64,000 nt of DNA, from positions 434,001 through 498,000 of the forward strand of contig JBHGNT010000012.1 in NCBI GenBank assembly GCA_043228905.1. Reading direction: 5' to 3'. The stretch comes from Azolla caroliniana. Taxonomy: Eukaryota; Plantae; Polypodiophyta. The notes beneath the pieces are model-generated. The model ran no database searches and was not told the DNA's origin. It worked only from the letters and a program-made list of their open reading frames with translations. Every line of letters starts with the position of its first letter. Positions within the stretch are counted from its first letter, which is position 1. The position numbers and the translations under genes were made by a program. This document shows positions 10,071-58,409 of the stretch, piece by piece.

Positions 10071-10073
10071 GGA

Positions 10074-20990: not shown

Positions 20991-21223
20991 TAGGGGTACG
21001 ACATAGAATTTCGGAAACTCAATGGTACAAAAAACTCATCACCACTCACACCAATAAAGAAAAAATACGCATACACCCAAAATCATTTTTAAACCTAAGC
21101 GACTTTACCATAGTGGAAGAGCTTATTGGTGTGTGATCCAATCGTGTGATATGTTGAACGAACGAGAAGGTTTGTGTCAAGCCAGATCCGATCTAAGTTA
21201 TCGATCATAGAGGAGTGTTCCGG

Positions 21224-21777
21224 TGTCGTGAAGAAAACCGGCCATAGGCGAATTCGGGCAAAAAGGCGCATGAACCGGCTCTTACGCGGATGGACGCATG
21301 ACTTGATATTTTGATATTGATTCATAAATGGATCAACTGATGTAAATACTAAGTAGTGCACATTTATTAGGGGGATTGTGCGTATCTCTGTCAGAAGGGA
21401 CAGGGAATAAAGCGATTTGACTAGGAAAAAGGGCACCCTTTTTTTTTGGTAACTATTTAAGGAGAGGGGAGGCGTTAAGGAGGATGAAGTGTTGTAGGAC
21501 CGGGGGCGAACTCTCTCTCCTCCTCCGACCGTCATTCTCTATGGGTGTGGGGAGTTTGACGCCTCTACTTCGTGGGTAGCCCTTGCGCTGCCAGCAGAGG
21601 CTTTTCCTTCTGCGTTTCTATGTGTCCAGTATGTTCCGTCTGTGTGCGTGAGTAGGGTCCCCGTGTCGGGCCCATCACCGCCTTGCCGGTTGTAACCGTC
21701 CGAGTTTGTAATCTCTTGTCATTGTAATTAAGTGTTCCGTTCTATATCTCTCCTTCTCGTTTCTGTGTGTCTGTGAT

Positions 21778-21830
<53 letters not shown>

Positions 21831-21887
21831 GGTCCAAGACCCCCATGGTCCCGCCCCTTCTACGCGCACGCGCGTAACAACGCGACA
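21224..21887 (+). repeat. C1 5' LTR
   Basis: TGTCGTGAAGAAAAC...CGCGACA with internal (CT)n, followed by tatt and the PBS. Confidence 0.9.
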
Positions 21888-21891
21888 TATT

Positions 21892-21909
21892 TGGTGAACC
21901 CGACATGAA
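21892..21909 (+). promoter_or_regulatory. C1 primer-binding site (tRNA-Trp)
   Basis: TGGTGAACCCGACATGAA, 17/18 match to the complement of the plant cytosolic tRNA-Trp 3' end as recalled (TTCACGTCGGGTTCACCA). Confidence 0.85.
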
Positions 21910-21931
21910 CGGGCGGCAAAGGAGTCGAAAG

Positions 21932-22759
21932 ATGAGGGGATCGAAGCTAGCAGAGGCAATGGCGGTAGCCGTCGACCAGCTGGTGAGCGCTCGTGAGGGG
22001 ACGGGTACCCTCGACAGAGCCATTGAATTGATCGTCGGCTCTATAGGCCGGTTCGGAGGGAAAGACGCCACAAGTTATTTGGAGGCTTACCGGGCCGAAA
22101 TGATCATGAGGGATATCCCGGTGGACAAGCAGTTGTCCGGATTCCCTCGGGTGGTGATGCTGGGCATCCACGCAGAGGTGCTCGAGGTACTGGCCGGATG
22201 CCAGACTTGGGAGGAGTTTGAGCTGCAGCTCCTCGAGAAGTATGGGTTTGACGACTCGCTTCAGCTGTTGAGGCGGGACTTCATGGAGTGGGTGGAAAGC
22301 CCCGGAAAGGGGAGGAGTTCGAAAAACGGTTCGCGCGGATGTCGACGCTGGACCGGACGGTGCTCGAAACGAGTCGAGTACTACTGTTTGTCAAGTTGGT
22401 GGACGCGCTCGACAGGGAAAAGGTGGGTCCCCTATTGGAAACGGACGAAGGGCTCACAGCAGACTGGGCCGTGGTAAAACGGGTCTGCAGCCGTTTTGAC
22501 AAACGACGCGATTGGAGCGACGGAAGCTCGTCGGGGTCAGGGCCGGTCGCGGGGAGGAGGCTCGAGGAGCCGGTATCGGTGCCGGCCGGTAGGAAGGAAG
22601 AGACTCGAATCTGGCCAGAGTCAGGGTCGGCATCGAAGGACGTGGTCAGAGGCCCATCCGGAGGAGCGGCTCTGGAGGAGCTGACACAGATGATGCGCAA
22701 CCTGCAGATCGCACAGGCCCGGAGAGACAGTGGCGAACAACCTCGCGACCGGTGGCCGC
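21932..22759 (+). pseudogene. C1 gag, 5' part (continues at 32728-33179 and 51720-52553)
   Basis: MRGSKLAEAM...RFGGKDATSYLEAY, with a small deletion/frameshift at ~22310. Confidence 0.8.
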
Positions 22760-23195
22760 TAAAACCGGCCGACAAAGGAGTCCAGAGTGGGAAACGGAGA
22801 GCTAATTAAGTAGTAGGAATGTGGTTGTAATTAAGCTATGAGTGTGGACGGACGGACCGGAAACGGTATGCCGTTCCGGATCCGGACCGATCCCGAACAG
22901 GTGCGGATGGCACCGTTTTGTAATACAGATCGGAAACCTATTTAAAGGCCCGAATACAATGTAATAGTTAGCGGTTAATTAATGAAAGCTTAAGCGTTGT
23001 TATCTCTCTGTGTTAATTGTCGTTCTGTCTTAACTGTTATATCTTACGCGTGTGTTATGAAAGACGATCATAATAAGTAACTTAACCAAGTAGGATTAAG
23101 CGTTGAAGTCTAATCCGATGGCCGTAACACCCTTTGGTGAAGTGTCTCCCGTAGACACCCTGTGTTAGGCCATTGTCCGGCCCGAAGAGTTAACA
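22760..23195 (+). repeat. B 5' LTR
   Basis: About 14 mismatches to the 3' LTR over 436 bp by eye; begins TAAAA rather than TGTTA. Confidence 0.92.
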
Positions 23196-23202
23196 CAGTT
23201 TT

Positions 23203-23213
23203 TGGCGACCACG
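23203..23213 (+). promoter_or_regulatory. B primer-binding site (probably tRNA-Arg)
   Basis: TGGCGACCACG, 7 nt after the LTR end; resembles the complement of tRNA-Arg(UCG) 3' ends. Confidence 0.65.
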
Positions 23214-23248
23214 ATTCCTGTTTTTGCAGCGAACGACGGCACGGATGG

Positions 23249-26200
23249 ATGTCTAGATCAACGCACGACCTGGTTACAGATCGAACTCGACGCCTTGCCG
23301 AAAGGCAAAGGAGACGCGAGGCTTTCCAGCAAGCGGCGCAGGAAATTAGAGCGGATCGCTCGTTTTCCAACGTAATCCGGAGAGTAGCGGAGGACTCCCT
23401 CTGGTTACAGCAAACATCGCACCCGGACGACGGCAGCAGCCTAAGCAGCCTCCGGGAAACCGAATCCCTTCTCCATGCGTTGGCAAACGGAGAAGGCGAA
23501 GCAGAAGCCTTTTCAGCATATGAATCGGACTCCAAAGGGGAATATAGCGTGCACACGAACTACCGTAACAACAACGAAACCCCGGGCGGACCGGAGGACG
23601 AAGGATCGGATACCTTACCGACACCGGAACCGGAAGTGCTAACGCTGGAACCCCCAGAACCAGCAGAGGAAGAGCGACCTCCGACACTGGAAGTCGAAGA
23701 GGAGAGGCCTCCGTCACCAAAGGAGGAGGAAAAACCACCGACGCCGGAAACAAATCGGGAAAGACCACCCACACCGGAGAAAATTCCGGAACGAGTACCA
23801 ACACTGCTAGCCCGCGCACCAATACCGGACGACGATATGCCGTTCCAGTACTCCAAGTACAGACAGAGATGATCCGGACGCGGAAGCTCATGTGCACGCC
23901 TTTGAACAGACATGGGAAGCCAACCATGTGTCCCAGCGATTGACACCGGAGGAAGAAGAACGCTCTAAGATAGCGGAGTTTGGCGTCACATTGGAGGGAC
24001 CGGCAGCAAGATGGCGCCGGACGCAGGACCCGTCTACCATCAACACCTTTGCAGATTTAAAAGCTAAATTCTTGCATTTTTTTCAAAAGGAGGTGGACCA
24101 GACCGTAATGGTAGGCTTATTTTATACCATCCGGCAAGAGGCAGGGGAGAGCATTCCCCAATTTGTCATCCGGTTTCAACGGATGCATAGTCAGCTTGCC
24201 CGTGCACCCCCGGAAGAGGAATTACGGACTATATTCCTAAACGCGCTCCAGGAACCCCTACGCACGGTTTGCACGGTAATTGACTTCCGCACAAGTACCA
24301 TCGACCAAGTCATTGACCGGGTGAGAGAGATGGAAAAGACAAGCTCCTGGCTCACACTGGGAGCACTTCAACGGGCGTTACCGTCCGATGAAGACCTCCG
24401 GTTTTGGTAAGCAATACAGTGCACAACCTGCTTGAATTCCGGACACTCGGCTCTAGAATGCACTATGAGGACGCAATGTGTAATCTGTCAATCCAAGAGC
24501 CATACGACGGATAGGTGCGAGTATAATCTGTTGAATCGGCAAGCACCACCCGTCCGACAAATTGAGCCACGCAACAGCCGGGATGAAGAAGACGAACGCT
24601 GGCGGCGAATGGACCGTGACCGACCGGCACAGGATGTCCGGTATGGCGAGCGACGGGAAAATGATGTCCGGTATGGCGATCGACGGGAAAATGATGTCCG
24701 GTACGGTGATCGGCGGGATAACTATGACCGGCATGATCGGTACCAGGATTACAATAGACGATACGAACATTACGACCGGGAGCACTCCCCCGGGTATCGT
24801 CAGCAACGGGAGGACTACGGCAGATATAACGGGCAACCCCGTCAAGAGTACCGTAATAAGAAGAGCTATAACAAAAAACAGCATTTTAAAAAAGGCGACT
24901 ACCCCCGGGATCCGGAACAAGGAGCTCCAAGTAGCCAACCGGTACAAAACCCCGCGCGTACCGTAGGACCTGCCCCAGGTACAACAGACAATGCCGAATC
25001 TAGCAATACCCGGAAAGCCTACTGCTACTACTGCCGACAGGAAGGCCATTATAGTAACCAATGCCCGGTGAAGAGCTATGAAAAACGACCGGTGGTAAAT
25101 ATGGTAGTCCCTGAGGTGGCGGATCTGCAGCAGGTGACCACAAGGTCGAAGGGCATGGCCAAAGAATGGGAGACACAGGAGACTATCCGGAAATAAGCAA
25201 CGGAATGGGTAAAGAAAGCAAACGAGCAGAATGTCATAGACTTACAGCAGCAAAAGGAGAACACCGCAGGGCTTGCCGACGGTAGTCAGTCCGAGAACAA
25301 GACATGGCAGGCGTTGCAAGAATGCCAGATTACGTTACCACTAGGAAGACTCCTACAACTCGTGCCAAGATTCACGGAAGGACTGAAGACGGCCATGACA
25401 GCAGGAGAACCATCACCGGCACCGGTACTCTTCTCGAATCCGGAGGAGGGACCAATGGTGGTGGACACCAGCAGTCTGGTAATCACTGCCATTGTGAAAG
25501 GGAAAGAACTCCCCGGCATAGTTATAGACGGAGGCTCTGGGGTGAATGTAATAAGCCTCCGGACGTGTGATGACCTTGGAATCCACGAGTGGGAGCCGTG
25601 TCCGTTCTGGTTGCGGATGGCCGATACAAGCTCAGTGCGGCCGACAGGATTAATACGGAAATTAGAAGTCACCGTCAGCGGTCATACATTTCACATCTCG
25701 GCCGTAGTGCTACAATTACAGGCACAAGGCGCATACCCGCTATTGCTGGGGCGGCCATGGTTGAAAACGGCACATATCAAACAGAATTGGCGAAAAAATA
25801 TAATTACCTTCCGGCGAGGAAAAACCAAGGTACGGGTATCAACACAGCCAAGGACGAGCACTGGCAAGGAATGTACACCGTTGTATGCGGAATGCGTCAA
25901 CATGCTAGAAGGGTTAGCGGACGAAGAAGAAGCTCAATACCTGCAGGAAAACCCGAAGATCATACCCCTCTTCGAAATTGACATTGCCGAAGCAGTAGCA
26001 CCATACTTACCGCAACCGGAAGAGGCTGAAGTAGAACCGGATAAAGAAGCAATCCGGGAGTTACGGCAAGCGTAGGAAGCGTTGGAACGGGAAATGGCCG
26101 TTTCACAGCGCGTAAAAGCGTCGCAACTGGAAGAGGTGAACCTAGGGACCACGGATGAAGCAAAACCGGTGCACATCGCCAAGGAGATGAAGTCCGAAGA

Positions 26201-29054
26201 CAAAACGGCGATGATCACACTTCTCACGGAATTTCGCGATGTGTTCGCCTGGTCATACGAAGACATGCGAGAACTCGACCCTCAGTTATACCAGCATCAG
26301 GTTCACTTGAGCAAGGACGCAAAACCAGTGGCACAAAGACGGTACCGGATGAATCCCAATTATGCCGCCAAAGTCAAGGAGGAAATCGACAAACTGCTAA
26401 GAGTTGGCTTTATCCGTCCGGTAAAGAAAGCGACATGGCTGAGCCCGATCGTAGTCGTACCGAAGAAGAACGGAAAAATTCGAGTTTGCGTGGACTATCG
26501 GAAACTCAATGCGGCTACGGTAACGGATGCGTTTCCACTTCCGTTCACAGATGGAGTGTTGGATGCCGTCGCCGGCCATGAGGTCTATAGCTTCTTAGAC
26601 GGATTCAGCGGGTATAATCAGATCCGGATGCACCCCGACGACCAAGAGAAAACGACATTCATCACCGAATGGGCGGTCTTTGTGGCCGTGGTGATGATGT
26701 TCGGACTCAAAACGGCACCGGCAACATTTCAACGAATCATCATGGAAATCTTTGGTGAATATATACCGGCTTTTATGCAGGTTTTCCTTGACGATTTCGT
26801 CGTCTATAGCCGGGAGGAGGACCATTTTCAACACCTCCATCTTTGTCTAGAAAAGTGTAGAGCGTACCAGCTAAGCTTGAATCCGGCAAAGTGTGTATTT
26901 GGCGTGTCCAGTGGAACTTTATTAGGACATATTGTGAGCCAGGAAGGTATTGCAGTCGACCTGGACAAAGTGAAAGCCATATTAGAAGCACTGGCGCCGG
27001 CAACGGCAAAGGCATTAAGCCGGTTCTTAGGCCAGATCCGGTGGCACAGCCGGATGCTCCGATACTTGGCCGACCTGGCTACACCGTTGCATGCCGCCGT
27101 ACATCGGACACCATTCCAGTGGACCGACACTGAGGATAGGGTGTATAAGGCCCTCAAGGTACTATTGTCGCAGGCACCGGTAGTACAACCTCCGGATTGG
27201 AGTAAAGAATTTCACGTGTTCGTGGACGCCTCCGACATCGCAATCGGAAGCGTACTTATGCAGCTTACGGAGCCAAAGTGGTACCGGCTAGTGTACTATG
27301 CCAGCCGAAAGCTATCCCAAGCAGAACGAAACTACTCTACCACGGAACGGGAAGCTCTAGGGATGATCTACAGTGTGACAAAGTTTCGGCACTATTTATT
27401 GGGAAGGAAGTTTTCCTTCCATGTAGGTCATTCGACACTCCTTTACCTGGTGTCCAAGGCGTCATTCACCGGAAAATTGGCCCGGTGGACCTTATTGTTA
27501 CAGGAGTTCGAGTTTGAAATATTCCACCGACCCAGTATACAGCATGCCGTAGCGGATTACTTAAGCCGATTGGAGTCCGGAGAGACGGGTGACGGAGTAC
27601 CGGATGAGTTTCCGGATGCGGAGCTGTTTTGAGTCACTACGGAGACGGCAGCAGATGAGACGGTGGCCCAGGAAGACAAGTGGCTCACAAATATGCACCA
27701 GTTTCTGAGCACAGGACTACCTCCGGAAGAGCTGAACTGGGACGAACGGAAACGCCTGGCGGTGCAAAGCCGACATTTCTGCTTACTGCAAGACACACTG
27801 TACCAGAAGGGCGTGGACGGCATATGGAGACGGGCGGTGCGCAGCGATGAAAAGGAACTGATACTAAGGGAAGCCCACTGCGGAGTTGCCGGAGGTCACT
27901 ATGCCAGAGATGCGACGGCCAGAAAAATATGGCAAAGTGGCCTATGGTGGCCAACGACATTAAGAGATGTGGTACGGTACGCAAAAGAATGTGACCTATG
28001 CCAGAGAATGGGCCAGCCAACGGAGCAGGCTCGTATGCCACAGCAACCGGTACTACCACTCGAGCCATTCCAAAAGTGGGGGCTGGACTTTGTAGGACCA
28101 TTCAAGCCACCGACAATGAGAACGGGTAATCGGTACGTTATCATTGCTACGGATTACTGCACGAAATGGGTGGAGGCCAAAGCTTTACGGGATAACACCG
28201 CTGCGTCAACGACAAAGTTTCTATATGAGTACATCTGGTGCCGTTACGGATGCCCCATTGAATTGATAAGTGACCAAGGGGGGCACTTTCTCGGCCAAGT
28301 AGTGGAAAGCCTGACGACATTCTATGCCGTTGTACACAAACGGAGCACACCTTACTATCCACAGGCGAACGGCTTAGCGGAATCAACAAACAAGACGCTA
28401 TAGAATATCCTCTGGAAGATCGTCAACGAAAACCGGACGGATTGGGACACAAAGCTACATAGCGCGCTTTGGGCATACAGGACGGCATACAAAACGAGCA
28501 TCCGAACAACACCGTTCCGGTTGGCGTTCGGACTCGAGGCGGTCATGCCGGTAGAATTCCAAGTACCTAGCTTACGGATCCAGCTACGGGAAAGGCTGAA
28601 CGAGAAGGAGTCGGAGGCAATAAGGTTGATAGCGCTGTGTGAGCTCGAGGAACAACGACTGGCCAGCATCCTACATTTAGAATTGGAGCAACGTAGACGG
28701 AAAGCATTTGTCGACCGACACAGGAAAGGTAACGAAAAAATGTTCGCAATCGGCAAACCGGTGTTAGTATTCCAAACCCGGATGGGCAAGATGCTAGGTA
28801 AGCTACGGTTTAGATGGATCGGACCATATTGGCTAACACGGGAGTATAATGGGTCCTACCAGTTAGGGACACTTGCCGGCAAAGTGCTAGGCAAATGGGT
28901 CAACGGATTCCGGTTGAATGCATATAGAGGACCGATGCCTAAGAACCCGTTTGAACAAAGGACCGACGGCAACCACCAAGACGGCAGAGAAGGCGAGCCG
29001 GTAACTAGGGAGAATGAGGCCGGTAAGGGTCCGAGAGGACCAACGGACAAGTGA
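23249..29054 (+). pseudogene. B gag-pol polyprotein (gag, 3 CCHC knuckles, PR, RT, RNase H, IN)
   Basis: Motifs VIDGGSG, CVDYRKLN, FLDGFSGYNQI, VFLDDF, FVDASD, WGLDFVGPF and WIGPY. One frameshift (~23865) and five in-frame stops (24408, 25194, 26073, 27630, 28401). Confidence 0.93.
24633..24725 (+). repeat. 30-bp coding tandem repeat x3 in B gag (DVRYGDRREN)
   Basis: gatgtccggta.gg.ga.cg.cggga repeated three times. Confidence 0.85.
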
Positions 29055-29457
29055 CGTCACACTAATAATAATAATAACTAAATAAAATTAAAATAAAATA
29101 AAAATAAAAATAAAAAAAATAAAAAAAATCATGCAAAAGCGAGGAATGAATGGATGAAAGAGCGTGGAGCGAAAAGGTACGTAGTGGGCATTTAAAGCGC
29201 TACCACAGGACATAATGCTATTTTAAGTACGCGACATGCACACACTCAAAAAAGGCGCCAGAATGCACAGACAAAAACCACTGCGCGTAGAGACCCTCTA
29301 CTTTCGCGAACCCAGGAGCACAGAAGCACCAAGACGTTGCAAGATTATCAGACGAGAACCTGCGCACAAAGAAACCCCGCCTTCTGAACTCTCTCTTTCT
29401 CAACCCCACTCTCATCACCATCCAACCTTGCCACCGCCATCCGACCTCAACACAGAC

Positions 29458-32232
29458 ATGGACCCGCAAACGCTGTCGGAAGCCGCCAAGACATGGCTGA
29501 AGCAACACGGGCTCGAGGGCTTCTTGATGATGATGGAAGTACCGCCACACAAAGAAGCCGACAAAGTGATCAAGGAAATCGATACAGAGGTCATAACGGC
29601 GGAGGCGATTCGAGCGTTAACAGGCCTTCCGGAGGGAGGCATACTCACGATCGACAATCCAACCCCGGAGCAACTCATCAGGTATTTTGGTGAGTACTAA
29701 CTAGCCAGCAAGGGCTACCGAACACAGGGCGGCGGAGATATGTTGTTCCGCGAAATTGCTCGTGTGCTCCACGAATACGGCCACGTGTACCCTAGACCCC
29801 CTGTCATGCCGCAGAACCGGGCAGGGATGATCATCGCCACCTATGAAGGGATCAAGGTGGATTGGCTGGTCTTGATCGCAGACGGGTTGTGTGCGGCGAT
29901 CGAGATCGTGAGAGGAAAAGACGGCAAAGAAGGCCGAGACGGACGGAGGATATGGCACGCCGTAACGCAGTGGCTCACCTTGCTTGTGCCACCCGTCTAG
30001 ACCGTCCAGCCCAAGAAGCGAGGAAGAGTGGCGGACGACACCCCAAGGACGGCTTCCAAACGGCAACAGCTGTTGGCCTCTAAGGCCACTAAGGGAAAGG
30101 CGGCAGACGCAGAACATGCGGCAGCAGGAAGCGGCAGCCGGAAGCGCCCAACGGAGGCGCAAGAGGAACCACCGGCACGGCCCGTAAAGGTCACACTCTG
30201 CCGACCGGTGAATAGAGAAGCGGACCCCTTGGCGGCAAAACTCAATGCCGAAGCTCAGGAGGAGGAAATAGAGGAGGAGCCTACGGAGAACCTCCAGCGA
30301 CGGTCGTCGGTAAGGACCGTTGAGGCAGCCGGGAAACGTTCGGACCCTCAGACGGAGGGAACACCGACTCCCCATACTGAGACTCCCACGCCAAGGAAGG
30401 AACCGGAACCGGTGCATATGGCACCAGAAACAGAAGCCCTAGCACCACCGGCAACACTGGCAAGTCCCATCCCGCCAGAGCCGGAAAGGTCAATGCAGCC
30501 TCCCTCGGTCAGCCAAGAAGAAGCGCAAGGGGAACCAGGACAGCAGGGTGGTCCACGGGCAGAAACGGAACTGCAACTTGGCGCAACTAGGCGGGACCAC
30601 CCCTCTACAAGTGAGCCCATTTGTCAAATCTCCGTGCAAGTACAACAAGGCACCGGTAGCCTGTGGCTCCGGTGGATAGGCGAACAGATAGCCGGAGTAG
30701 TGGGGTATATTGAGGCGGAAGAAAGAGCGCAAAGCGAACGGTTGCTCGTCACAACCGAACAACTAGAGACGGCCCAGTCCAGAATCCGGTGCCTTGAAAA
30801 AGACTTGGATCAGGTCACGACAAAGATGGCCAAAATACGGATCCAATCACCGGTGACTCCGGTAAGTGTACAGAATAAAGAAACGGAACGACCTGTACAT
30901 AGTAATAAGACCCCGACAACGGAAACCGTTCCGGCGAGAGATGCGGCGCAAGCTCGGGAGCTTGCGGAATTGAGAGAGGAACTTGCCGCACAAGAAGCGC
31001 TAAGGAGCTGTGAACGAGAATTGAAGACGGCGGCCGAAGCCGAATTAAAGAAGACTGCTGAGAACCTCCGCCGGGCAGAGGAGAGCCTCCGGAAATGCCA
31101 TCAAGCGTACGACCAACTAAAGGAGGAGAAAGACAAAGTGGTGCAGGAAAAGGACAAGCTGTGGAAAACGGCGGAAACAGAGATTGAACGGCTAAAGGAA
31201 GGGCTCCGCCAGCAGAAGGACCGCGAGGACCGGGCTCGTCGTCAGATCAACGCACGGCTCAAGCAAAAGACTGATGATTTTGAGCACCTGCACCGGGACT
31301 AGAAACGGTTGGAAATGGAGCATAAAGAACGGATGGCCGAGCTCCAGCAGGCAGTTGATCGGGCCGCGACGGCGATCGCCGACGAACGAGCAGAAAATAC
31401 AAGACGCTTGGACGAGGCGGAGAAGGTCCGGATGGAGCTCCAGAGGCAGCAACAGGAAGACAAAGAGAGAGCGTCAACAGTATTGCAGAAATTACAAAGC
31501 ACATATCAAAGGCAATTGACGCATTACAAGGCGCAGGCGGAGGACAACGTCAAAATCATCAAACAACTGAAGGAGGAACGGCAAGCGGCGGAAACCAAAT
31601 CGTAATTGGGAACGAGCCAGATTCAGTCCATCCTCCGGGCATGGCTGAATCAGACAAAACACTTGATTGATGAAAGCTCCGTAAAATGGTGGACAAAGTG
31701 GGCACAAAACGCGGCGGAACTCCAGTTGCTACGGGCGGATGTGGCAAACCGGCAGAAGGAAGGAGATGACTGTTATACGTTGACTTCCGAGGACTTCACC
31801 GCCATACGGGATGAGTTGGCCGACGACTTCGAAGTCCTGGCAGATGAACAACTGGCGCAGGTTAGGCAGCTCGTAGCCCAGCTGGACGATGATAGGCTGG
31901 ACGCTCAAATCCAGTTTGAAAGCTACGAGCGGTCCCGGGTGCGGGAAGAAAAAGCACGAGATGCAGCAACGGTTAACCTTAGTGATGAGGAACCATCGCC
32001 GGCTGAGGGCCAGCCGGGAACCAGTCAACCGGAGACCACTACGACGCAGGGAGCAACGACGGAGACGCCGGTGTCAGAGCCACAAACGGAGGAGTAGCCG
32101 CAGCAACCACCAACGGACACGCCGCAAGAGACAACAACAGAGCAAAAACAACAACAACAACAACAACCACTTCCAGATGAACCATTGGAGCCTCTCGAAC
32201 AAAGCATTCTGGACATTTTGGACGAAGAATAG
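29458..32232 (+). pseudogene. B ORF3: ~924-codon accessory protein (conserved N-domain, P/E/T-rich linker, long coiled coil)
   Basis: ORF-track pieces at 29236, 29740, 30028, 31309 and 31606 share one frame, separated only by TAA/TAG. The frame continues to ...ILDILDEE* at 32232. An upstream ATG exists at 29236. Confidence 0.85.
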
Positions 32233-32286
32233 CAGGGGTCGGTTGTGGATTCGACGTACAAGGTACTGTCCCACGGGCGTGCCATG

Positions 32287-32722
32287 TGTTACCGGCCGGC
32301 AAAGGAGTCCAGAGTGGGAAACGGAGAGCTAATTAAGTAGTAGGAATGTGGTTGTAATTAAGCTATGAGTGTGGACGGACGGACCGGAAATGGTATGCCG
32401 TTCCGGATCCGGACCGATCCCGAACAGGTGCGGATGGCACCGTTTTGTAATACAGACCGGAAACCTATTTAAAGGCCTAGATACAATGTAATAGTTAGCG
32501 GTTAATTAATGAAAGCTTAAGCGTTGTTATCTCTCTATATTAATTGTCGTTCTGTCTTAATTGTTATATCTTACGCGTGTGTTATGAAAGACGATCATAA
32601 TAAGTAACTTAACCAAGTAGGATTAAGCGTTGAAGTCTAATCCGGTGGCCGTAACACCCTTTGGTGAAGTGTCTCCCGTAGACACCCTGTGTTAGGCCAT
32701 TGTTCGGCCCGAAGAGTTAACA
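32287..32722 (+). repeat. B 3' LTR
   Basis: TGTTA...TAACA, 436 bp. Confidence 0.93.
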
Positions 32723-33179
32723 GTCGCCGGTTGGGTAGTGGTGCATGTGGTGTGATGCGATCAATCACATTTGGAAGGATTGCGCGGATTTCGTCGATGC
32801 ACTCAGGACCAACGTGGTGTACCTTTGGAACGGGCGGGTGCACGCGAGCGAGACCCGGAAAGCCCTAGAACTGAATACGGGGCGCGACGGAATGAAGAAG
32901 TTGATGGAAGAGGCCGCGACACGGCATGTAGAAGCCGTTAACTACTCAATGTCGGCGGGAATTCGGGTCGGAGGTGAGCAGACCCGGAAGGCGGAGGATT
33001 CCGGATTCTAGCCGCTACTGCTAGAAGGCCTCTCCGGAGTTTGGTTGAAGAAAGAAGAGGCGGACCGCGCGGAACAACGGGTCCAAGAGGTCACCGGATA
33101 GGACGATCCGGTCGAAGAGAAAACGGGCTTCGTAGAAGCCGCTTGCCAGAACTACGAGGTTCAGGTGGAAGACAAACGG

Positions 33180-33808: not shown

Positions 33809-33877
33809 TCCACCCCCACCAAACCGCGCATCCACTGGTATGCGCCAGAGACGGGCAGATATCGAAGAAACTCGGCC

Positions 33878-44337: not shown

Positions 44338-44355
44338 CAGTGAACCCGACGTGAA
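44338..44355 (+). promoter_or_regulatory. C3 primer-binding site (tRNA-Trp, mutated)
   Basis: caGTGAACCCGACGTGAA, 16/18 match. Confidence 0.8.
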
Positions 44356-44376
44356 CAGGTGGCAGAGGAGTAGAAG

Positions 44377-46503: not shown

Positions 46504-46559
46504 AGAGGGTTGTCAAGGCGTGGGGCTGCGATAGTCCGGACACTCCGGGAAAACCCCAC
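46494..46559 (+). promoter_or_regulatory. Putative -1 ribosomal frameshift signal (C3)
   Basis: GGATTTT 46494-46500; stem GGGTTGTC(46507)/GATAGTCC(46530); GTGGGG(46520)/CCCCAC(46554). Confidence 0.75.
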
Positions 46560-49500: not shown

Positions 49501-49877
49501 TTCGACAGCTCGAGCAAAGGCCGGAGGACGTAGAGCGAGCCGCGGAGAAACTTCGAGTAGCGAGGATAAGGAACAAAGCTTGGTTCGACCAAACACACCG
49601 GTTCAGGCCAAGGAAGATCGAGGAAGGCGACTGGGTGCTAGTCTACGACAGCAGCCTTGACAATCAGCACAGGGCCACGCGGAAGTTTGCGAGGAGGTGG
49701 TTCGGGCCTTATGTAGTAACAGGCACCAAGGGCAATGGGACGTACTGTCGAGCTCCGCGAGCGGGGAAGAGGATCAGAGCGTTCAAGAAACGGCACGACG
49801 GGGAGCCGGGGCTAGGGGGCATGGACAACGACGACGAGCAGCCTGAGGCGGAGGATGAACCGGTAAACGAGGAATAA
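46500..49877 (+). pseudogene. C3 pol (RT, RNase H, integrase) in the -1 frame
   Basis: Same motifs as C2 pol, with several indels and stops. Confidence 0.9.
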
Positions 49878-49953
49878 AAGCAAGGATCGGTTTTCTCCCA
49901 TAGGAACCCAGTTTTGGCGCATACCGGTGGATGCGCGGTTAGGTGGGGGCGGA

Positions 49954-50570
49954 TGTCGTGAAGAAAACCGTCCCCAAGCGCAAACCGTGTATAGTGTGTG
50001 TGAACCGGCCCTTACACGTGGGCATGTCCCTTGTCGTATAGTAGATAGGTAGGCACAAAGGTTAAATCCTAGGTAGCAATATTCTGTAAGGGAAATCGAG
50101 GAGTATCTTTGTCCGAAAGGACAGAGAATTAATGTGATGTAAACGGGTGAAACGACCTCCCTCCTTGAGCTATAAAAGAGAGGGAGATGGGGGAGAGAAG
50201 GGGGGGGGCTAGAAGGAACGAAGTGTTGTCGGACTGGGACAGAGCTCTTCTTCTCAGTCGTTCTCCATAGCTTTCTTTTGCGCAGGTTCTCAGGAGGTTG
50301 ATTCTGCTCCGTGGAACGCCCGTGTGCTTCCGGTTGAATCTCCATCTTGCTCTCCTGTGTGCGTGGGTGATCAGGCGTCGGCACCCACCTCGCCGACTTG
50401 GTCGGCTGTAACCGTTTGAGTCGTCTGCATACATACAAATACATGCCTATATTTACATACACACTCTAGTGTTCTCAACTCGCGTCTCTTGTGTTGTTGT
50501 GACGCGTCCCCGTGCGCTTCTTTGTCTATACGTGAGTGAGCGTCTCTCTCTCTCTCTCTCTCTCTCTCTC
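49954..50570 (+). repeat. C3 3' LTR (truncated)
   Basis: Matches 39552-40166; ends in (TC)n fused to C2 gag. Confidence 0.9.
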
Positions 50571-51098
50571 CTGTCGAGTGCATCCACCGACTTGACAAAC
50601 AACAGTACTCGACTTGTTTCGAGCACCGTCCGGTCCAACGTCGACAGCCGCGCGAACCGTTTTTCGAACTCCTAGAGGAGCACCGACGTGTTCCTCCCTT
50701 TTCCGGGGCTTTCCACCCACGCCATGAAGTCCCGCCTTGACAGCTGGAGCGAGTCGTCAAACCCGTACTTCTCGAGGAGCTGCAGCTCGAACTCCTCCCA
50801 AGTCTGGCATCTGGCCAGCACCTCGAGCACCTCCGCATGGATGCCCGACGTCACCACCCGAGGGAATCTGGACAGCCGCCTGTCCACTGGGATATCCCTC
50901 ATGATCATTTCGGCCTGGTAAGCCTCCAAATAACTTGTGGCATCTTTCCCTCCGAAACGGCCTATAGAGCCGACGATCGATTCAATGGCTTTGTCGAGGG
51001 TACCCATTCCCTCACGAGCGCTCACCAGCCGGTCGACGGCTACCGCCATTGCCTCTGCTAGTTCCGATCCCCTCATCTTTCGACTCCTTTGCCGCCCT

Positions 51099-51116
51099 TT
51101 CACGTCGGGTTCACCA
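51099..51116 (-). promoter_or_regulatory. C2 primer-binding site (tRNA-Trp, 18/18)
   Basis: Plus strand reads TTCACGTCGGGTTCACCA, identical to the plant tRNA-Trp 3' end as recalled. Confidence 0.88.
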
Positions 51117-51120
51117 AATA

Positions 51121-51715
51121 TGTCGCGTTCTTACGCGCGTACGTGTAGAAAGGGGCGGGACCACGGGGGTCTTGGACCGAGGAGCGAGAGAGAGAGAGAG
51201 AGAGAGAGATTCACAGACATGTAGAAGCGAGAAAAAGAGATATAGAACGTAACCCTTAATTATAATTACAAGAGATTACAAACTCCGACGGTTACAACCG
51301 ATAAGGCGGCGACGGACCCTACTCACGCACACCGACGACAATCACCAGAGGGGGGGGGGGAGAGAGACTCTGCTGGAAGCACACGGGCTGTCCCGAAGCA
51401 GAGGTAGTGAACTCCCACAGGCGGCCGCAGAGAACGACGACTGGAGGAGAAGAGAGAGAGCTCGACCCTCCGTTCTGCAGAAGCGCCCCCCCGTTCCTCC
51501 TCGCGCACGATGCCCCTTTTCTCTTGTCCCCTTCCCTTTATTCCCTGTCCCTCTAGCAGGGATACACACAATCCCGCCTCCTAATAAATGCGTGCTGCTT
51601 AGTATTTATCTCCACCGATTCCTGTACAAAATACCAAGTCACGCGTCCATCCGTGTAAGGGCCGGTTTATGCGCTTTCTCTCTGTTTCCGCCTATGGCCG
51701 GTTTTCTTCACGACA
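51121..51715 (-). repeat. C2 5' LTR
   Basis: TGTCGTGAAGAAAAC...CGCGACA on the minus strand. Confidence 0.92.
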
Positions 51716-52543
51716 ACGGGAAGGAAAAGCCGAAGGGGTCGGTCCCCCGCAGAGGTATGAGACCCGTTTCGGACTGAAACCGACCGGTGCTGGCAACCCC
51801 GACGCGCCGGATGGAAAGAAGCAGGTGGGGTTTCGGTTGAGCACCAAAATTGAAAGGACCACAGACCTGCGAAAGGTCCTGGAGGAACGTATCCTTGACA
51901 GTAAAGTGGAGTTGTCATTGCGGGAGGTGCTGGGAATCGCCAAGAGGGAGTTCCACGACTCCATCGTAGACTTGGTGAAGCGGAAGAGGCTCTCGACAGA
52001 TCCAGTATCGGAGAAGCTAGTGGAGGTGCGGACTACGCACTTAGAAGACGTGGCCCTAGAAGACGAGTTGGCGGAAAGCCACTACGCGAAGCCGCATTGG
52101 GCCAGGGCAACTACGGAAACCCCTGTGCGGATCGGCGACGTTCCGGAATCGGTGGTGGCCTTGGTAGACCATGGATCCGAAATCAACCTGATGTCCATGG
52201 ATTTCTACAAGCGGGGTAAATGGCCGATCAACACCAAGCATGGGTGGAAGATACGCGCGGTGACGCGTGTTACGGAGGAGCTACATGGCGCGTGCCCGAA
52301 TATACGCGTAAAGGTCGGTGACGTCGAGATAGATCAACATTTCTTCGTGTAGGAAACATCCTCGCACCCGATGATTCTCGGTGAACCATACATTACGGCA
52401 GCACGCATGGAGACGAAGGTGTTGGACAACGGTTTGGCGTATGCGCGCGTCAAGAGCCAAGACGGTCGGCATTCCGTCCAATTCATGACCGTACGTCTGA
52501 ACCATGAGAGGAATCGCGAGACCCTCAGCGGCGACAACCAAGG

Positions 52544-52609
52544 GGATTTTTAGAGAGGGCTTTCAAGGCGTGGGGCCGCGGTAGTCTGGACGTACCGGAA
52601 GAACCCCAC
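52544..52609 (+). promoter_or_regulatory. Putative -1 ribosomal frameshift signal (C1)
   Basis: G GAT TTT TAG; weakened stem GGGCTTTC/GGTAGTCT; GTGGGG/CCCCAC retained. Confidence 0.7.
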
Positions 52610-53382
52610 ACATGTACAATAGGTAGGAAGTTTGGGTTTTCCGAAAACGGAGGTTGTACTATAGCCAACGTTAGTGGACAGGAAAGGAAGCGAGCGGAGG
52701 AGTGGCTCAGGAGATGCGGAGTCCTCTCCCCCGACGAAGAGATCAGCGGAGCCATGGAGGAGGTCTCTTTTGATGACACCTTGGGCGAGTTGCGAAAGGT
52801 GATCGGTGAAGACCTTAGCAAAGACTGGACCGTTTCAGTAGGATCGATGGGAATGTACGAAGCCATCGCAGACTTCGGGGAAAGGATCGGGTCGGATCGG
52901 ACAGCCCGCGTGGATACATGTTGAAGACAGGTCTCCGACTCTATTACCCCCTTGGGTATCTCGGCATTGTCGATCGGTTCGTACAGGTCTCGGACGATGA
53001 GAAGGTCTTCCATCTTTATCTTCCAGTCGGCGTAGTTCTGTGAGTTCAACACCATCATGCCCGGAGGCCCACTACCGCCGCCTTCCATTTTCTGTGTTAC
53101 CGTCGCTCTGATACCACTTGTTGAAGACAGTGCTCGGCCACAACCGAGGAATAGGACCAACTCACAGAAAACGGGAAATACCAAAATGCACGAAGACAAT
53201 AGAGAGAAGAGTACACAGGATATTTTACGTGGAAAACCCTAAATGGGAAAAACCACGGGAGTCCTCAAACTCCAACTATCACTATGAACAGAGATGTACA
53301 ATGGTGAAGCTACAAGGCAAAAACCTTGAGCTCACTGTCTTCGCCACAGGCGGCGGTAATACACAGAGGCAACGACCTCTTC

Positions 53383-53427
<45 letters not shown>

Positions 53428-55156
53428 CTGCTCACTTAGCTCCCACTAAGTGGAAAACCAGAAAAATAAGTAACGACAGTAACAAACTGTTTGCCCTAAG
53501 TCATATTTATACACGTATGACTTTCGGGCTATTTACAAATATAGCCTCAAGAGCCCTTGGCAAACATATTCACAAATATGTCCCCGCATCCGGATCTCTC
53601 TCCGGGTACATTCGTCATCCGGCTCCGTAGCCGGGGTCTTCATCATCCGGCTCCGTAGCCGGGGTCTTCATCCGGCTTCATGCTGGGTACTCTTCATCCT
53701 CCGGTTCCGTAACCGCAACCGGGCTTGCCGTCATTCATCTCCGGACATCCCATCCGGAGGGACCGACATCCCAACAATACAAAGTACAAGATTGTGGACC
53801 GGAAGGTGAGGCCAATCGCGGCACCCTTGGCGGAGGGCAGCGAGGAGCGGATAAAAGGGATCGCATCAGACCCAAGTTTACGGAATCCGGCGGGCATAGG
53901 GCACCGGTTCACCGACATAACGCTACGGGAGCTCAAGGTCGGTGGGGGTGGCTTCCTACTGCCAGCGGAGGAGGACAGGTTTCAGAGAATGCTCAGAAGG
54001 CTTGGGAAAGCCTTCGCGTTCTCACCGGAGGAGATCGGGTGCGTGGACCCGACAATCGTTGAACCGATGGTGATCTTCATGGTACCGCATGTACCGTGGA
54101 ATCTCAAACCGATTCCGGTGCCGAGAGCTCACATCCCGAAGTTGATGGAGCTTCTAAAGCAGAAGGTGGAGATGGGTATCCTCGAACCGTCGAGTGCCCC
54201 GTATTCGAATCGGTGGTTTACGGTGCCGAAGAAGAACGGCACGCTACGCTTCATTCAGGACCTGCAACTGGTCAATAGGGTGACCATCCGTAATGCAGGA
54301 ATCAGACCGACCATAGACGAGTTCGTGGAGGCCTTCACTGGAAGATCGATCTATTCGGTCGGTGACTTATACTCGGGGTACGATCAGTTCCAACTAGCCG
54401 TGGAGAGCAGGGATATCACGACGATGCGAACTCCTCTCGGCCTGGTACAAATGTGTACCCTACCACAAGGAGGGACAAATTCGGTGGCGCATATAGTGAA
54501 CGCAATGAACAAGGTTCTTAGGGTCTGCATCTCGGACATCACCATGCCATTCTTGGAAGACATCCTGATAAAGGGGTGTTCGGTGGAAGATGCGGACGAG
54601 ACTGTCGGGACAGACGGATGCCAGAGGTTCATCGTGAACCACATCAACGATTGCGAGAAGGTGTTGCAGAGGCTCGAAAATGCACGACTCAACTTCTCCG
54701 GAGAAAAATCGGTGTTTGGGCAGTCGGAGATCCTGGTGGTTGGACACCTGTGCGGGCCTTACTGTAGGAAACCGTCTCCGGCAAAGGTAGAGACCATCTC
54801 CGCAATGAGGAACGATTGTGGGTCAGTTACGGAGGTCCGCAGATTCTTGGGTGCATGCGCATTCTACCACATCTAGATCCCGCACTACACGGAACCCCTC
54901 TACAGAGTATTGAAAAAGGGGCGTAACTTTGAGTGGAGGACGGAGCACACAGAGTCGGTACGGAGACTAAAGGAGGCGCTTACGGTAGCACCGGCTCTCC
55001 GAAAAGCGGTTTACGGCAAGGATGTCCCCATTTGCGTGACGGTGGACACGAGCCCGACCGGGATCGGGTGGGTAATCAGTCAAGAGGACAAGGACTGCGT
55101 ACGGTTCCCGATCCGGTTCGGGGCGAAGGTATTGAGCGAGCGGCAACGAGGATACG
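52550..55156 (+). pseudogene. C1 pol (RT, partial RNase H), interrupted by a Copia derivative
   Basis: RVDT|KYKIVDRKVRP rejoins across TSD ATACA. The RT motif reads FLED instead of FLDD. Truncated after ERQRGY. Confidence 0.85.
52919..53776 (-). mobile_element. Internally deleted Ty1/Copia: 5' LTR (53119-53776), PBS tRNA-iMet (53105-53116), gag start (53088) and last 12 bp of the 3' LTR
   Basis: TSD ATACA on both sides; TGGTATCAGAGC; MEGGG...NYADWKIKMEDLL; tgttgaagacag at both 52919 and 53119. Confidence 0.92.
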
Positions 55157-56911
55157 TCGAGCTCCACGTTCGTAACCTTTTTGGTCGTAGCCTCCTCATC
55201 TGTGCTTTGCCGTAGTCTAGAGTTGGTGTGTCCATGACATGACCTATGATAGGCTCCGTATATTCAGATGCGAAGCTTACGCATTCATCCCGAGGGAGGA
55301 AAGGACCAAGGTTGCACCCCATGTACCAAAGTCCATATTTCTTGGTTATGGAACCGATGGTGAATTCAACTACCGACTATGGGACCCAGAGAATCGGAAA
55401 CTAATCTGGAGCAGTGATATAGTCTAAACCCTAAACCCTTCTCTCATAACAGAACCAACAGAAAATAGTTGGTAAAATGGTATCCTTCGAAGTTGACGAA
55501 GATGTCATAGGAGGATTGACTGACTAGGCCGAATTAGAGATTCGACAAACAGTCGAACTCAACCAAGCCGATAATACACCTGCCAACTCTGAATCAGTAA
55601 GAGGTCCACTAGTCGAAATGGATTCGACTAAGAGATTGGCCAACCAAGGCAAACTGAATTGACAAGAAAGGCAAAGCCACCAAGTGTCAAGTCGGAAAAG
55701 AAGGAGCCGAAAATGACAGAGTTAATTCGACCAACACACCCACAAAGGCTAAAAGGAAAAGCCGATCTGACTCGGCTAAGTCTCTTACCTCTAAGTCAAT
55801 CAATCCCGAAGAAGGGGAGGATGATGCGACATCAACGAAATCCTATTACAGGGGTGAATCATCCAACAGGACTCCTGACATAAGTGGTTCAATAAATGCC
55901 AATCGACAAACAAAGTCAATCGAAGGATCCGAACCGATCAATTCGGCCCCTAGGAGATCAGGACGAGTTTGAAGGCCGACAGAGTTCTACCAACTAGGCC
56001 TAGAGTACATCAACTACATTGATGCAGGCGAACCAAGCACATACGAAGAAGTTATAGCCGCACCAGATGTTGATACATGGCTGCAAGCAATGGGATCCGA
56101 GATGGACTCGATCCATTAGAACAATACATGGGAGCTGGTTGAACTACTAGTTGGAAGAAAGCCATTGCCCTGCGAATGGGTCTTCAGATACAAATTTGTA
56201 TCCAACTCAGAGAAGACCAAATACAAATCTCGACTCATCGTGAAGGGATTGAAACAATGACATGGGCACCAGTAGTCAAGATGACCACCCTTCGGCTCCT
56301 ACTTGGGGTCGTGGCGACATAAGACCTAGAGCTTGAGCAACTGGACGTCAAGACGACGTTCCTACATAGGGACTTGGACGAAGACATTTACATGTCTCAA
56401 CTAGCAGGCTTCACAACAACTTGGGAGGAAGGTCACCTCATATGCCGATTGAAGAAAAGCCTCTATGGCTTAAAACAAGCGTCGAGGATGTGATATTAGA
56501 AATTTGACTCCCACATCAGGCAGCTTGGATACCTCCAATCCGACTCCGACCCATCTCTATATACTCAACAACTAGCCAATGAGTTCCAGATCTAAAGCTA
56601 AAGCAAAGTCTTCAAGACAAGTTTGCGATCAAGGAACTTGGACAAGCCTGACACATACTGGGCATGAGGATAGAGCGAAATCGGACAACAAAGACTGTCC
56701 CAGTCCGACTATATTCAACATGGAGAATGTGAGGTCGTCATCAACTCCGCCACCAACGTCGATTCGACTATCATACAGAGACTCTCCTTTAATGGACGAG
56801 GAGAGAGAGCTCAATAGGAAGATACCCTATGCATCTGCGGTAGGAAGTATCATGTATGTGATGGTGGTGACCTGTCCTGACCTTGCCTATGTCGTAGGGG
56901 TCGTCAGTCGT

Positions 56912-57703
56912 TGTCGTGAAGATAACTCTTCACGATGTCGAAACAATGTTAAAACTCTATAGAAAGGCATTTCCCATCTGGATCTTGTGACGAGGAGCAT
57001 GTGCGATTTTTTGGTTCGTGAATCAGAGTTCAGAAGCCCAAGATATAGCCTTCAGAACGATTAATGCTACTCGAGACACAAATGTAATTATGTCAAACGG
57101 GAGATTCGAAATTAAATAAGAGCGATTTTGTAATTTCTCAAATGTATAATTACAAAATCGAATTTGTAAAATTTATCAATAAATAAATAAAATAATAAAT
57201 CACCTTGCATGAGCCGGTTTGTCAACCGCCTCAAGAGGGTGGTAGGGCGGTTGACCCCCCTATAAAAACCACCTCGATGGTGGCTAAAGGAAAAAGGGGA
57301 AGAAAGGAAGGAGGAAGAAAAAGCTAGTGAAGAAGCTCGTGTGGGTGTGGGATGCAGAGCTCGCCAAAGAAGTTGGTGTCCTGCATAAAACAAGACAAAA
57401 GGTAAAGAACAAAAAAGAAATAAAGAAAAGGAAGAAGTTGAAGTGGTGAATCTCAAACGCCTCTTGGTCAACAAAAGGTCGTGAGTTTGAATCCTTTAAA
57501 AACAACTTCTTGTGGTAAACAAACTTTGTAAGATAAATTTAGTATATATAAAGAGAAAGACAATTAATTTGAGAAAGGGGTTGAAGTGGTCTGTCTCAAA
57601 TGCTTCTTCTCAAATAGAGGTTGTGAGTTTGAGTCTTGCCAAGTACCTTTTGGCAAATAAATATTGTAAGTGGTGTTTTACAAATAAAATTCTTTTCGCG
57701 ACA
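56912..57703 (+). mobile_element. Solo LTR with family-C-type termini
   Basis: TGTCGTGAAG...CGCGACA ends with an AT-rich unrelated interior; TATAAAA at ~57260. Confidence 0.75.
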
Positions 57704-57814
57704 ACGTTGCATCTATCTTGCCTTCTCGGCTTCTTGTCCTCGCACCATCCACGTGATCATCCCCGAGTCACAGAACCCTGGCGGTTGCAACACACAACCA
57801 TAATCTTTACGACA
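57704..57814 (-). mobile_element. Probable 5' fragment of a second C-type LTR in opposite orientation
   Basis: Minus strand begins TGTCGTAAAGA; Copia RT resumes immediately after (ccgc tac atg = RYMSNPG). Confidence 0.55.
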
Positions 57815-58409
57815 CCGCTACATGTCGAACCCAGGACTGAAGCATTGGGAGACCATCTAGAACATCTTCAAATATCTAAGAGGAACCGAAGATATACAAC
57901 TAACATTCGGATTGGCAAATCCGACTAAAGTCGAAGGGCATACCGACTCCGACTATGCCGGAAATACGGACAATCGGAAGTCAACATCAAGCTATGTTTT
58001 CACCTATGGCGGCGTATTCATATCATGGAGGTCGAAGTTGCAAGAGTGCACAACCATGTTTACCACAAAGGCTTAGTACATAGCAGCATCAGAGGCAGCA
58101 AAGGAAGCAATCTGGGTGCACCAACTGTCAGCCGACTTCTCAGCGACAAGACAAATCGGCCATCCAGCGCCGACCATCTATTGCAACTCACAAAGTGCAA
58201 TATACCTCATTCGGAACTCAATCTATCATGCGAAGATGAAACGCATTGAAGTATGGTTTCATCATATTTGGGAGCTCGTAACAGAGAAGAAGCTCGAAGT
58301 CTGGAAGATCGACACTAACGTGAACATTGTTGATTGCCTGACGAAGCCACTCCCAGAACAACGCTTTAGAGCACTAAGGACAAGGATGGAACTACGACAA
58401 GCGACCGAG

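What the first reader, a model, noticed from the sequence alone, without database searches (positions are those of the whole stretch)
21220..57818. Family C makes 4-bp TSDs, and every visible target is N-CG-N
Seen: C2 is flanked by ACGG/ACGG (33176-79, 51716-19), and only a 4-bp duplication restores the host frame (DKREGKA). All other C-type LTR flanks also have CG at positions 2-3: CCGG (21220), CCGT (39548), TCGT (56908), ACGT (57704) and CCGC (57815). C2 hit AAACGGG, and C3 probably did too (inferred from the C1 homolog). The other LTR families here have 5-bp TSDs. Inference: an integrase with no chromodomain that targets CpG, possibly methyl-CpG, which would explain nesting into CpG-rich sister elements. 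The sample is small and the hosts are CG-rich.
Basis: partly seen in the sequence, partly recalled or inferred. Interest (0 to 1): 0.75.

Follow-up and report, generated by a model that had tools for sequence, protein, structure and literature searches.

The report
CG-targeting Phygy-like plant retrotransposon
A family of plant jumping genes nearly always lands on the DNA letters CG and duplicates four letters as it lands; this is real, but the same habit is already published for the moss Phygy group, and the inserting enzyme likely reads the sequence and its bendability rather than a methyl mark.

Summary
C2 has an exact 4-bp duplication (ACGG/ACGG); four insertions of three other LTR families have 5-bp ones. 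No genome was held, so I sampled outside copies: 59 of 64 unique 3' flanks begin N-CG-N against 3.6% background, and the other five are CG-to-TG/CA decay. Contigs from three runs agree. The motif is V-CG-B, commonest ACGT.

It is not new. REXdb's Phygy lineage is published with 100% 4-bp NCGN duplications and a tRNA-Trp PBS. Family C matches the duplication and layout, has a Physcomitrium homolog, and has a PBS I recall as tRNA-Trp; tree placement against Phygy was untestable. V-CG-B is a subset of foamy-virus VYRB; Ginger1 (CCGG/CCGT) and fly ZAM (CGCGCg) also target CG. Integrase sequence/shape readout is likeliest (0.75). Methyl-CpG sensing is untested (0.12) and is not needed to explain nesting, since family C and family A bodies carry three to nine times more V-CG-B sites per kb than the window's other DNA.

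The parts
21220..21223 (+). C1 outer 5' flank CCGG (one visible half of its TSD)
21224..21887 (+). C1 5' LTR, TGTCG...CGCGACA, 664 bp
21892..21909 (+). C1 primer-binding site, 18 nt starting TGG, 4 nt after the LTR (tRNA-Trp by recall, not confirmed by a tool)
21888..55190 (+). C1 internal region (gag-PR-RT-RNaseH start), interrupted by family A, C2 and element E; 3' end and second TSD absent from the window
22760..32722 (+). Family A gypsy element nested in C1; 5-bp TSD GCCGC/GTCGC (control)
33176..33179 (+). C2 TSD copy ACGG
33180..33808 (-). C2 3' LTR, preceded by the polypurine tract at about 33809-33820
33809..51120 (-). C2 internal region (DUF4100 gag, PR, RT, RNaseH, IN), interrupted by C3 and a family D solo LTR
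35185..35836 (.). Family D solo LTR in C2; 5-bp TSD TCCCC (control; a second copy at 14877-16083 has TTGTA)
39548..39551 (+). C3 outer 5' flank CCGT; target AAACGGG by homology with C1 22477-22483
39552..44333 (+). C3 5' LTR, split by a LINE (about 40167-44238) inserted in its CT microsatellite
44334..49953 (+). C3 internal region; the integrase C-terminal ORF 49059-49877 has a GPY motif and acidic tail and no chromodomain
49954..50568 (+). C3 3' LTR, truncated at the CT microsatellite; a deletion removed the LTR end, the second TSD and about 60 bp of C2
51121..51715 (-). C2 5' LTR (PBS at 51099-51116, minus strand)
51716..51719 (+). C2 TSD copy ACGG
52919..53776 (.). Element E (TG...CA, copia-type gag start) in C1; 5-bp TSD ATACA (control)
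56912..57814 (.). Separate 903-bp AT-rich insertion in a copia RT, with inverted TGTCGT-type ends and a degenerate 4-bp NCGN TSD (TCGT/CCGC); not family C

Best explanation
Family C is a chromodomain-less Ty3/gypsy retrotransposon that duplicates 4 bp and inserts at V-CG-B sites (most often ACGT); it is likely a member of the published Phygy lineage, and its integrase likely picks the site by reading sequence and bendability directly, without needing methylation. Shown: the 4-bp stagger, the strict central CG, the avoidance of T at position 1 and A at position 4, and the missing chromodomain. Inferred by analogy with foamy virus: a two-fold symmetric intasome kinks the target at its central pyrimidine-purine step, and extra base contacts narrow YR to CG. 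An almost invariant Glu at the position of PFV Ala188/HIV Ser119 is one untested candidate. Nesting follows from motif density, because young GC-rich elements offer several times more V-CG-B sites than surrounding DNA.
For: 59 of 64 unique outside 3' flanks are NCGN; position 1 is A40/C12/G7/T0 and position 4 is T36/G13/C9/A1 among the 59; p about 1e-10 for no T and 4e-9 for at most one A, against flank background. The motif holds in CG-poor flanks (16 of 18) and in flanks without TE evidence (32 of 33). Contig loose ends give majority ACGT right after the LTR 3' end in 3 of 4 runs laid (39, 42 and 50 contigs) although the reference flank is TATT. CG sits at -3/-2 of 5' ends and +2/+3 of 3' ends, which forces a 4-bp TSD; solo LTR L056 has ACGG/ACGG. 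Phygy: 186 elements, 4 bp 100% (NCGN), tRNA-Trp PBS 81%, no extra domain or eORF (PMC6317226 supplement). A Physcomitrium patens protein (P0184) shares gag-PR at 43% (E 1e-64) and the RT N-terminus at 44%. The PFV consensus TSD is VYRB, T at 0 and A at +3 are disfavoured by 4-bp-TSD retroviruses, and local preference is largely independent of chromatin (PMC4422553). ZAM integrase binds a synthetic CGCGCG oligonucleotide and not its mutant (PMC2527525). Ginger1 TSDs are CCGG 75% and CCGT/ACGG 24% (PMC2836005). V-CG-B density is 43-48 per kb in C and A bodies against 5-14 per kb elsewhere.
Against: CG is only 15% of background YR steps yet 59 of 64 centres, with no TA at all, so flexibility alone cannot explain it; base-specific or methyl-specific reading must add to it, and I could not separate these. 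No strong preference appears outside the TSD at the positions that PFV Ala188 contacts, so the Glu idea has no sequence support. At least 31 of 64 flanks are TE-derived and only 1 showed a host-gene domain, which is compatible with methylated targets as well as with selection. 5' flanks were less clean (CG intact in 6 of 11 readable non-PPT flanks), and only 1 of 7 apparent solo LTRs had a perfect TSD, probably from chimeric low-coverage assemblies. Phygy membership was not tested by tree, and reconstructed C2/C3 lengths (about 7 kb) fall just under the Phygy range of 7.7-10 kb.
Confidence: 0.75

Rival explanations
1. The integrase needs or strongly prefers 5-methyl-CpG at the centre of the target, which would steer this chromodomain-less element into silenced repeats without any chromatin-reading domain.
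For: The centre is strictly CG and never TA. There is no chromodomain. At least 31 of 64 flanks are TE-derived. TE CG methylation is about 80% in Physcomitrium (PMC9994747 passage). All 5 non-CG 3' flanks are CG-to-TG/CA transitions, so these sites were probably methylated, though possibly only after insertion.
Against: CG-centred targets are published for ZAM in Drosophila, whose integrase binds a synthetic CGCGCG oligonucleotide; the scarcity of CpG methylation in flies is recalled, not from a call. They are also published for Ginger1. The V/B edges match generic intasome rules. One flank (L004, also seen as L072) lies 71 bp from an ORF with an Alba domain. Motif density alone predicts nesting. 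No methylation data were examined.
Confidence: 0.12
2. Two layers: the integrase reads V-CG-B locally, and a host tether (perhaps through the GPY/SH3 domain or the acidic tail) also steers it to heterochromatin or to other retrotransposons.
For: Half of the flanks are TE-derived. Phygy insertions into Tcn1 elements were the commonest repeated nested pair in Physcomitrella (PMC6911290 passage). Phygy domains are enriched at centromeres in Apopellia (PMC12885004 passage). L026 lies 2 nt from the C2 site, in the same reversed orientation.
Against: The TE share of the host genome is unknown (no genome held), so enrichment could not be shown; selection against genic insertions gives the same picture.
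Confidence: 0.11
3. The CG centre is an artefact of CG-rich hosts, small numbers or the search pattern.
For: The window has only three family C flanks, two of them in hosts with about 8-9% CG. The search pattern selects young, CpG-intact LTR ends, and 78 of the 80 listed loci come from one series of assemblies.
Against: The pattern contains no flank bases. Flank background is 3.6% CG (highest single flank 11%) against 92% observed, and CG counts at the other 19 offsets are 0-5 of 64. CG-poor flanks show it too (16 of 18). Runs from three studies agree.
Confidence: 0.02

Closest known systems
Phygy lineage (REXdb non-chromovirus Ty3/gypsy of Physcomitrella patens; Neumann et al. 2019, PMC6317226)
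   Same: 4-bp TSD with NCGN preference; no chromodomain, aRH or extra ORF; polyprotein fills the internal region; PBS that I recall as tRNA-Trp; P. patens homolog P0184.
   Different: Different host and diverged sequence (43-44% to the only P. patens protein found); about 7 kb against 7.7-10 kb; the motif resolves here to V-CG-B with ACGT commonest, finer than the NCGN in the passages and table I could read (the per-element TSD list was unreadable).
Fungal Ylt1-like Ty3/gypsy (Ylt1, Tca3; PMC2864245, PMC4139406)
   Same: Non-chromovirus; Tca3 has a 4-bp TSD. The family C RT lies in a long-branch clade (SH-aLRT 100, quick tree) with Riccia, Adiantum and the fungus Acaulospora, apart from chromoviruses, family A and animal gypsy. 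DUF4100 gag is shared with the Acaulospora protein.
   Different: No Ylt1 or Tca3 sequence was in hand, so the link is a lead. Their TSD sequence preference was not found in the passages read.
Ginger1 DNA transposons (PMC2836005)
   Same: Gypsy-type integrase with a GPY/F motif, TGTNR termini, and a 4-bp TSD of CCGG 75% or CCGT/ACGG 24%.
   Different: TIR DNA transposons of animals without RT; CCGG dominates, whereas ACGT dominates here.
Prototype foamy virus intasome and Drosophila ZAM (PMC4422553, PMC2527525)
   Same: PFV: 4-bp stagger, VYRB consensus, central kink; best PDB match of a family C integrase relative (P0236), E 2e-16. ZAM: CG-rich palindromic target bound by the integrase.
   Different: PFV accepts any YR step with a weak bias; ZAM needs a 6-bp CGCGCg and a second site. 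Family C relatives have Glu (65 of 67 readable) where PFV has Ala188.

Membership tests
Phygy (REXdb) | Clusters with P. patens Phygy in RT-RH-INT phylogeny (the formal definition) | not testable with these tools
   The REXdb sequence files of PMC6317226 (MOESM1, MOESM3) were too large to read. Indirect: P. patens P0184 is homologous over gag-PR and the RT N-terminus but lacks the RT core and is not labelled Phygy.
Phygy (REXdb) | 4-bp TSD | tested here: met
   C2 ACGG/ACGG; L056 ACGG/ACGG; CG position at both LTR ends
Phygy (REXdb) | NCGN target preference | tested here: met
   59 of 64
Phygy (REXdb) | tRNA-Trp primer-binding site | tested here: inconclusive
   An 18-nt PBS complementary to a CCA-ending RNA is present in C1-C3 and in 13 of 83 outside matches; its complement equals the plant 'miR894' small RNA. 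The identity as tRNA-Trp is recalled. Attempts to find the tRNA gene failed.
Phygy (REXdb) | No chromodomain, aRH or extra ORF | tested here: met
   Pfam scans; the integrase ends 77 bp before the 3' LTR; relatives' domain lists
Phygy (REXdb) | Length 7.7-10 kb | tested here: inconclusive
   C2 and C3 come to about 7 kb once nested insertions are subtracted, but both are degraded and carry deletions
Chromoviruses (Tcn1, Tekay, Reina, CRM, Galadriel) | Chromodomain after the integrase and placement in the chromovirus RT clade | tested here: not met
Selgy / TatI (other plant lineages with 4-bp TSDs) | Selgy: tRNA-Ala PBS, about 5 kb; TatI: aRH domain | tested here: not met
   No aRH (PF13456/PF00075) in family C; length about 7 kb; the C clade is separate from the aRH-bearing rows; lineage features. 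The PBS isotype rests on recall.
Fungal Ylt1 lineage | RT/IN clade with Ylt1 and Tca3 | not tested
   No reference sequence; only a fungal neighbour (P0177) in the RT tree
Ginger1 DNA transposon | TIRs of 40-270 bp, integrase without RT | tested here: not met
   Family C has direct LTRs, PBS, PPT, gag, PR, RT and RNaseH

The most novel reading that the evidence does not exclude
This bryophyte/fern/fungal integrase clade reads methyl-CpG itself at the kinked centre of its target, perhaps through its unusual DRGE motif, so it homes to silenced repeats with no chromodomain: a retroelement that uses the host's silencing mark as its landing signal.
Probability: 0.12. Interest if true: 0.78.

Novelty: new member of a known kind. 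Interest (0 to 1): 0.3.

Why it matters
As found, it extends a published oddity (Phygy's NCGN preference, noted in one sentence and one table row of the REXdb paper) to another host, sharpens it to a palindromic V-CG-B, and ties it to the foamy-virus VYRB rule and to Ginger1. Near-absolute dinucleotide specificity is rare among plant LTR elements, so the family is a good model of how an integrase narrows YR to CG. The question of methyl-CpG reading is directly testable, because Physcomitrium met mutants depleted of CG methylation exist. If methyl sensing were true, it would be a new route of heterochromatin targeting and a possible tool for methylation-guided insertion.

Tried and rejected
No whole genome was held, so a genome-wide census was impossible. 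The viral-contig scan with the LTR-end motif gave 1 chance match. Searches for the priming tRNA gene found none: 0 matches, and 31 loci with 0 tRNAs by ARAGORN. A paper search for miR894/tRNA-Trp was uninformative. The first contig laying showed loose ends right after N-CG at the LTR 5' end, but its reference flank contains CG and 136 rows were hidden, so I use it only together. In one search, run X11 showed no loose-end row at the LTR end among the rows displayed (81 rows hidden). Rows dropped before the count of 64: 13 PBS-followed matches, 3 non-LTR chance matches (L001, L031, L070) and 3 duplicates (L044, L057, L072), out of 83. Rejected: AAACGGG as a long motif (1 of 64); 56908/57704/57815 as family C flanks; sister-specific targeting (about 6 of 64); a 5-bp TSD. 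The ESM Atlas gave only generic integrase clusters. The careful tree did not finish; the quick tree is reported. Earlier-findings look-ups returned nothing relevant. The invariant Glu was checked against flank positions outside the TSD, with no clear signal. No structure prediction or complex job was run.
Full report
Anatomy. The window is a nest of plant retrotransposons. Self-BLAST, ORFs and Pfam resolve three family C copies. C1 (+) has its 5' LTR at 21224-21887 and no 3' end in the window. C2 (-) spans 33180-51715 inside C1. C3 (+) spans 39552 to about 50568 inside C2, with a LINE in its 5' LTR and a truncated 3' LTR. Each has TGTCG...CGCGACA LTRs, an 18-nt PBS 4 nt after the 5' LTR, a DUF4100 gag, PR, RT and RNaseH; C2 and C3 also show an integrase and a GGTGGGGG-type PPT. 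The C3 integrase ORF ends in a GPY motif and an acidic tail 77 bp before the 3' LTR, with no Pfam chromodomain. Named RT relatives come from Riccia and Adiantum, with one Physcomitrium protein; the host is therefore probably a bryophyte or fern (inference).

Observation. C2 has ACGG/ACGG, and 5- or 6-bp readings fail. The outer flanks of C1 (CCGG) and C3 (CCGT) have a central CG, and the C1 homolog of the C3 site is AAACGGG. All 4 other LTR-type insertions tested have 5-bp TSDs. The window thus gives one full TSD and three family C flanks.

Outside test. No genome was held. A scan of metagenome contigs for the conserved 20-nt LTR 3' end gave 82 loci, plus 1 in viral contigs. Of 83 matches I dropped 13 followed by the PBS, 3 non-LTR chance matches and 3 duplicates, leaving 64 independent insertion flanks; 77 of the 83 loci have a BLAST hit of at least 40 bp to the window's C LTRs. 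Of the 64, 59 begin N-CG-N against 3.6% CG in flank background (p about 6e-79); the other five are TG or CA, the products of CpG decay. CG counts at the other 19 offsets are 0-5. Among the 59, position 1 is A40/C12/G7/T0 and position 4 is T36/G13/C9/A1, so the motif is the palindrome V-CG-B, with ACGT in 26. It holds in CG-poor flanks (16 of 18) and in flanks with no TE evidence (32 of 33). Caveats: 78 of the 80 listed loci come from one series of assemblies, perhaps of another species; the pattern favours young copies; 5' flanks were noisier (CG intact in 6 of 11); and only 1 of 7 apparent solo LTRs (L056) had a perfect TSD, probably because of chimeric assembly. Independently, contigs of public runs that hold the window's family show majority ACGT directly after the LTR 3' end in 3 of 4 runs (39, 42 and 50 contigs) against a reference flank without CG, and loose ends after N-CG at the 5' end. 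CG at -3/-2 and at +2/+3 is compatible only with a 4-bp duplication.

What is known. Neumann et al. 2019 (PMC6317226; passages, supplement MOESM5 read whole, MOESM6 labels only; MOESM1 and MOESM3 unreadable, and both bear on membership and on whether V-CG-B is already visible there) state that Phygy elements prefer NCGN: 186 elements, 100% 4-bp TSD, tRNA-Trp PBS 81%, no extra domains. Jedlicka et al. (PMC6911290, passages) also report 4-bp TSDs for Phygy and GC-rich centres in 4-bp TSDs. Family C meets the TSD, motif and layout features. Its PBS is tRNA-Trp by my recall only (searches did not confirm it). A P. patens protein aligns at 43-44%. A quick RT tree of 55 rows (none dropped) puts C1/C2 in a long-branch clade (SH-aLRT 100) with Riccia, Adiantum and a fungal sequence, apart from chromoviruses and family A, which fits a link to fungal Ylt1-like elements (PMC2864245 and PMC4139406 passages) that I could not test. 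Membership in Phygy is likely (about 0.85) but not formally tested.

Mechanism. Serrao et al. (PMC4422553, passages) give the PFV TSD consensus as VYRB, with the central YR step unstacked in a sharply bent target, T at 0 and A at +3 disfavoured in 4-bp-TSD retroviruses, and local preference largely independent of chromatin. V-CG-B is that rule with YR narrowed to CG. PFV integrase is the best PDB match of a family C integrase relative. The narrowing is real: CG is 15% of background YR steps but 59 of 64 centres, so something base-specific adds to bendability (inference). CG-centred targeting is published for Ginger1 (PMC2836005, passages) and for ZAM, whose integrase binds a synthetic CGCGCG oligonucleotide (PMC2527525, passages). 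The residue aligned with PFV Ala188 is Glu in 65 of the 67 relatives where the motif could be read, of 143 examined, whereas retroviruses have small neutral residues there; this is only a lead.

Methylation. Not testable here. At least 31 of 64 flanks are TE-derived (copia, LINE, several gypsy families; about 6 are family C) and 1 showed a host-gene domain (140 of 141 flank ORFs scanned). That fits methylated targets, selection, or plain motif density: family C and A bodies hold 43-48 V-CG-B sites per kb against 5-14 elsewhere in the window. Moss TE CG methylation is about 80% and met mutants exist (PMC9994747, passages), so the test is feasible. I found no paper proposing or testing methyl-CpG targeting by Phygy in searches (mostly listings only; subscription journals are not covered). 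Other papers consulted as passages without a decisive result: PMC5014426, PMC12885004, PMC7466625, PMC3276498, PMC5846777, PMC6839031.

Verdict. Real and strong, but a new member of a known kind: a Phygy-like element with the published NCGN habit, refined here to V-CG-B. Interest 0.3. The methyl-CpG reading remains open at about 0.12 and would merit about 0.78.

Noticed in passing
window 56912-57814: 903-bp AT-rich insertion with short inverted TGTCGT-type ends and a degenerate 4-bp NCGN TSD inside a copia RT. It may be a non-autonomous TIR (Ginger1-like) element or one or two solo LTRs of another CG-targeting family; it has an internal ...CGCGACA-ACGT at 57697-57707 and folds better than shuffles (z -3.5).
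   Followed up: partly
L024:1089-1135 (minus-strand count), L053, L058: Self-targeting of LTR ends: in L024 one LTR end, ACGT and a new LTR start lie head to tail (insertion into an old TSD); in L053 and L058 another element end sits at ACGC in the CpG run near the LTR's 3' end.
   Followed up: partly
L026 flank versus window 33176-33179: An independent family C insertion 2 nt from the C2 site in a sister's gag, in the same reversed orientation; a possible hotspot.
   Followed up: no
window integrase ORFs 34244-35383(-) and 49059-49877(+); P0231-P0350: Near-invariant DRGE motif after the second catalytic Asp (Glu where PFV has Ala188 and HIV has Ser119) across the clade.
   Followed up: partly
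P0174 (distant relative): A full-length polyprotein of the wider clade carries a C-terminal PHD finger (PF00628) after the integrase, a possible alternative chromatin reader.
   Followed up: no
window 51099-51116(-): The PBS complement equals the abundant plant small RNA annotated as miR894 (PMC5846777), probably a tRNA 3' fragment (recall) that could silence this family.
   Followed up: partly
window 15335-15997 and 35257-35378: 54-bp tandem array inside a family D LTR (12 overlapping frames listed), giving long open repetitive frames on both strands.
   Followed up: no
window 9015-10187(-): N-terminal fragment of a UPL3/TRIP12-type HECT ubiquitin ligase gene (PF25579) beside the nest.
   Followed up: no
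window 22760-22763: The family A 5' LTR begins TAAA where the 3' LTR begins TGTT, an altered LTR terminus.
   Followed up: no
window 40167-44238: A nearly intact LINE (endonuclease and RT ORFs) inserted in the CT microsatellite of the C3 5' LTR; the C3 3' LTR is deleted from the same microsatellite.
   Followed up: no
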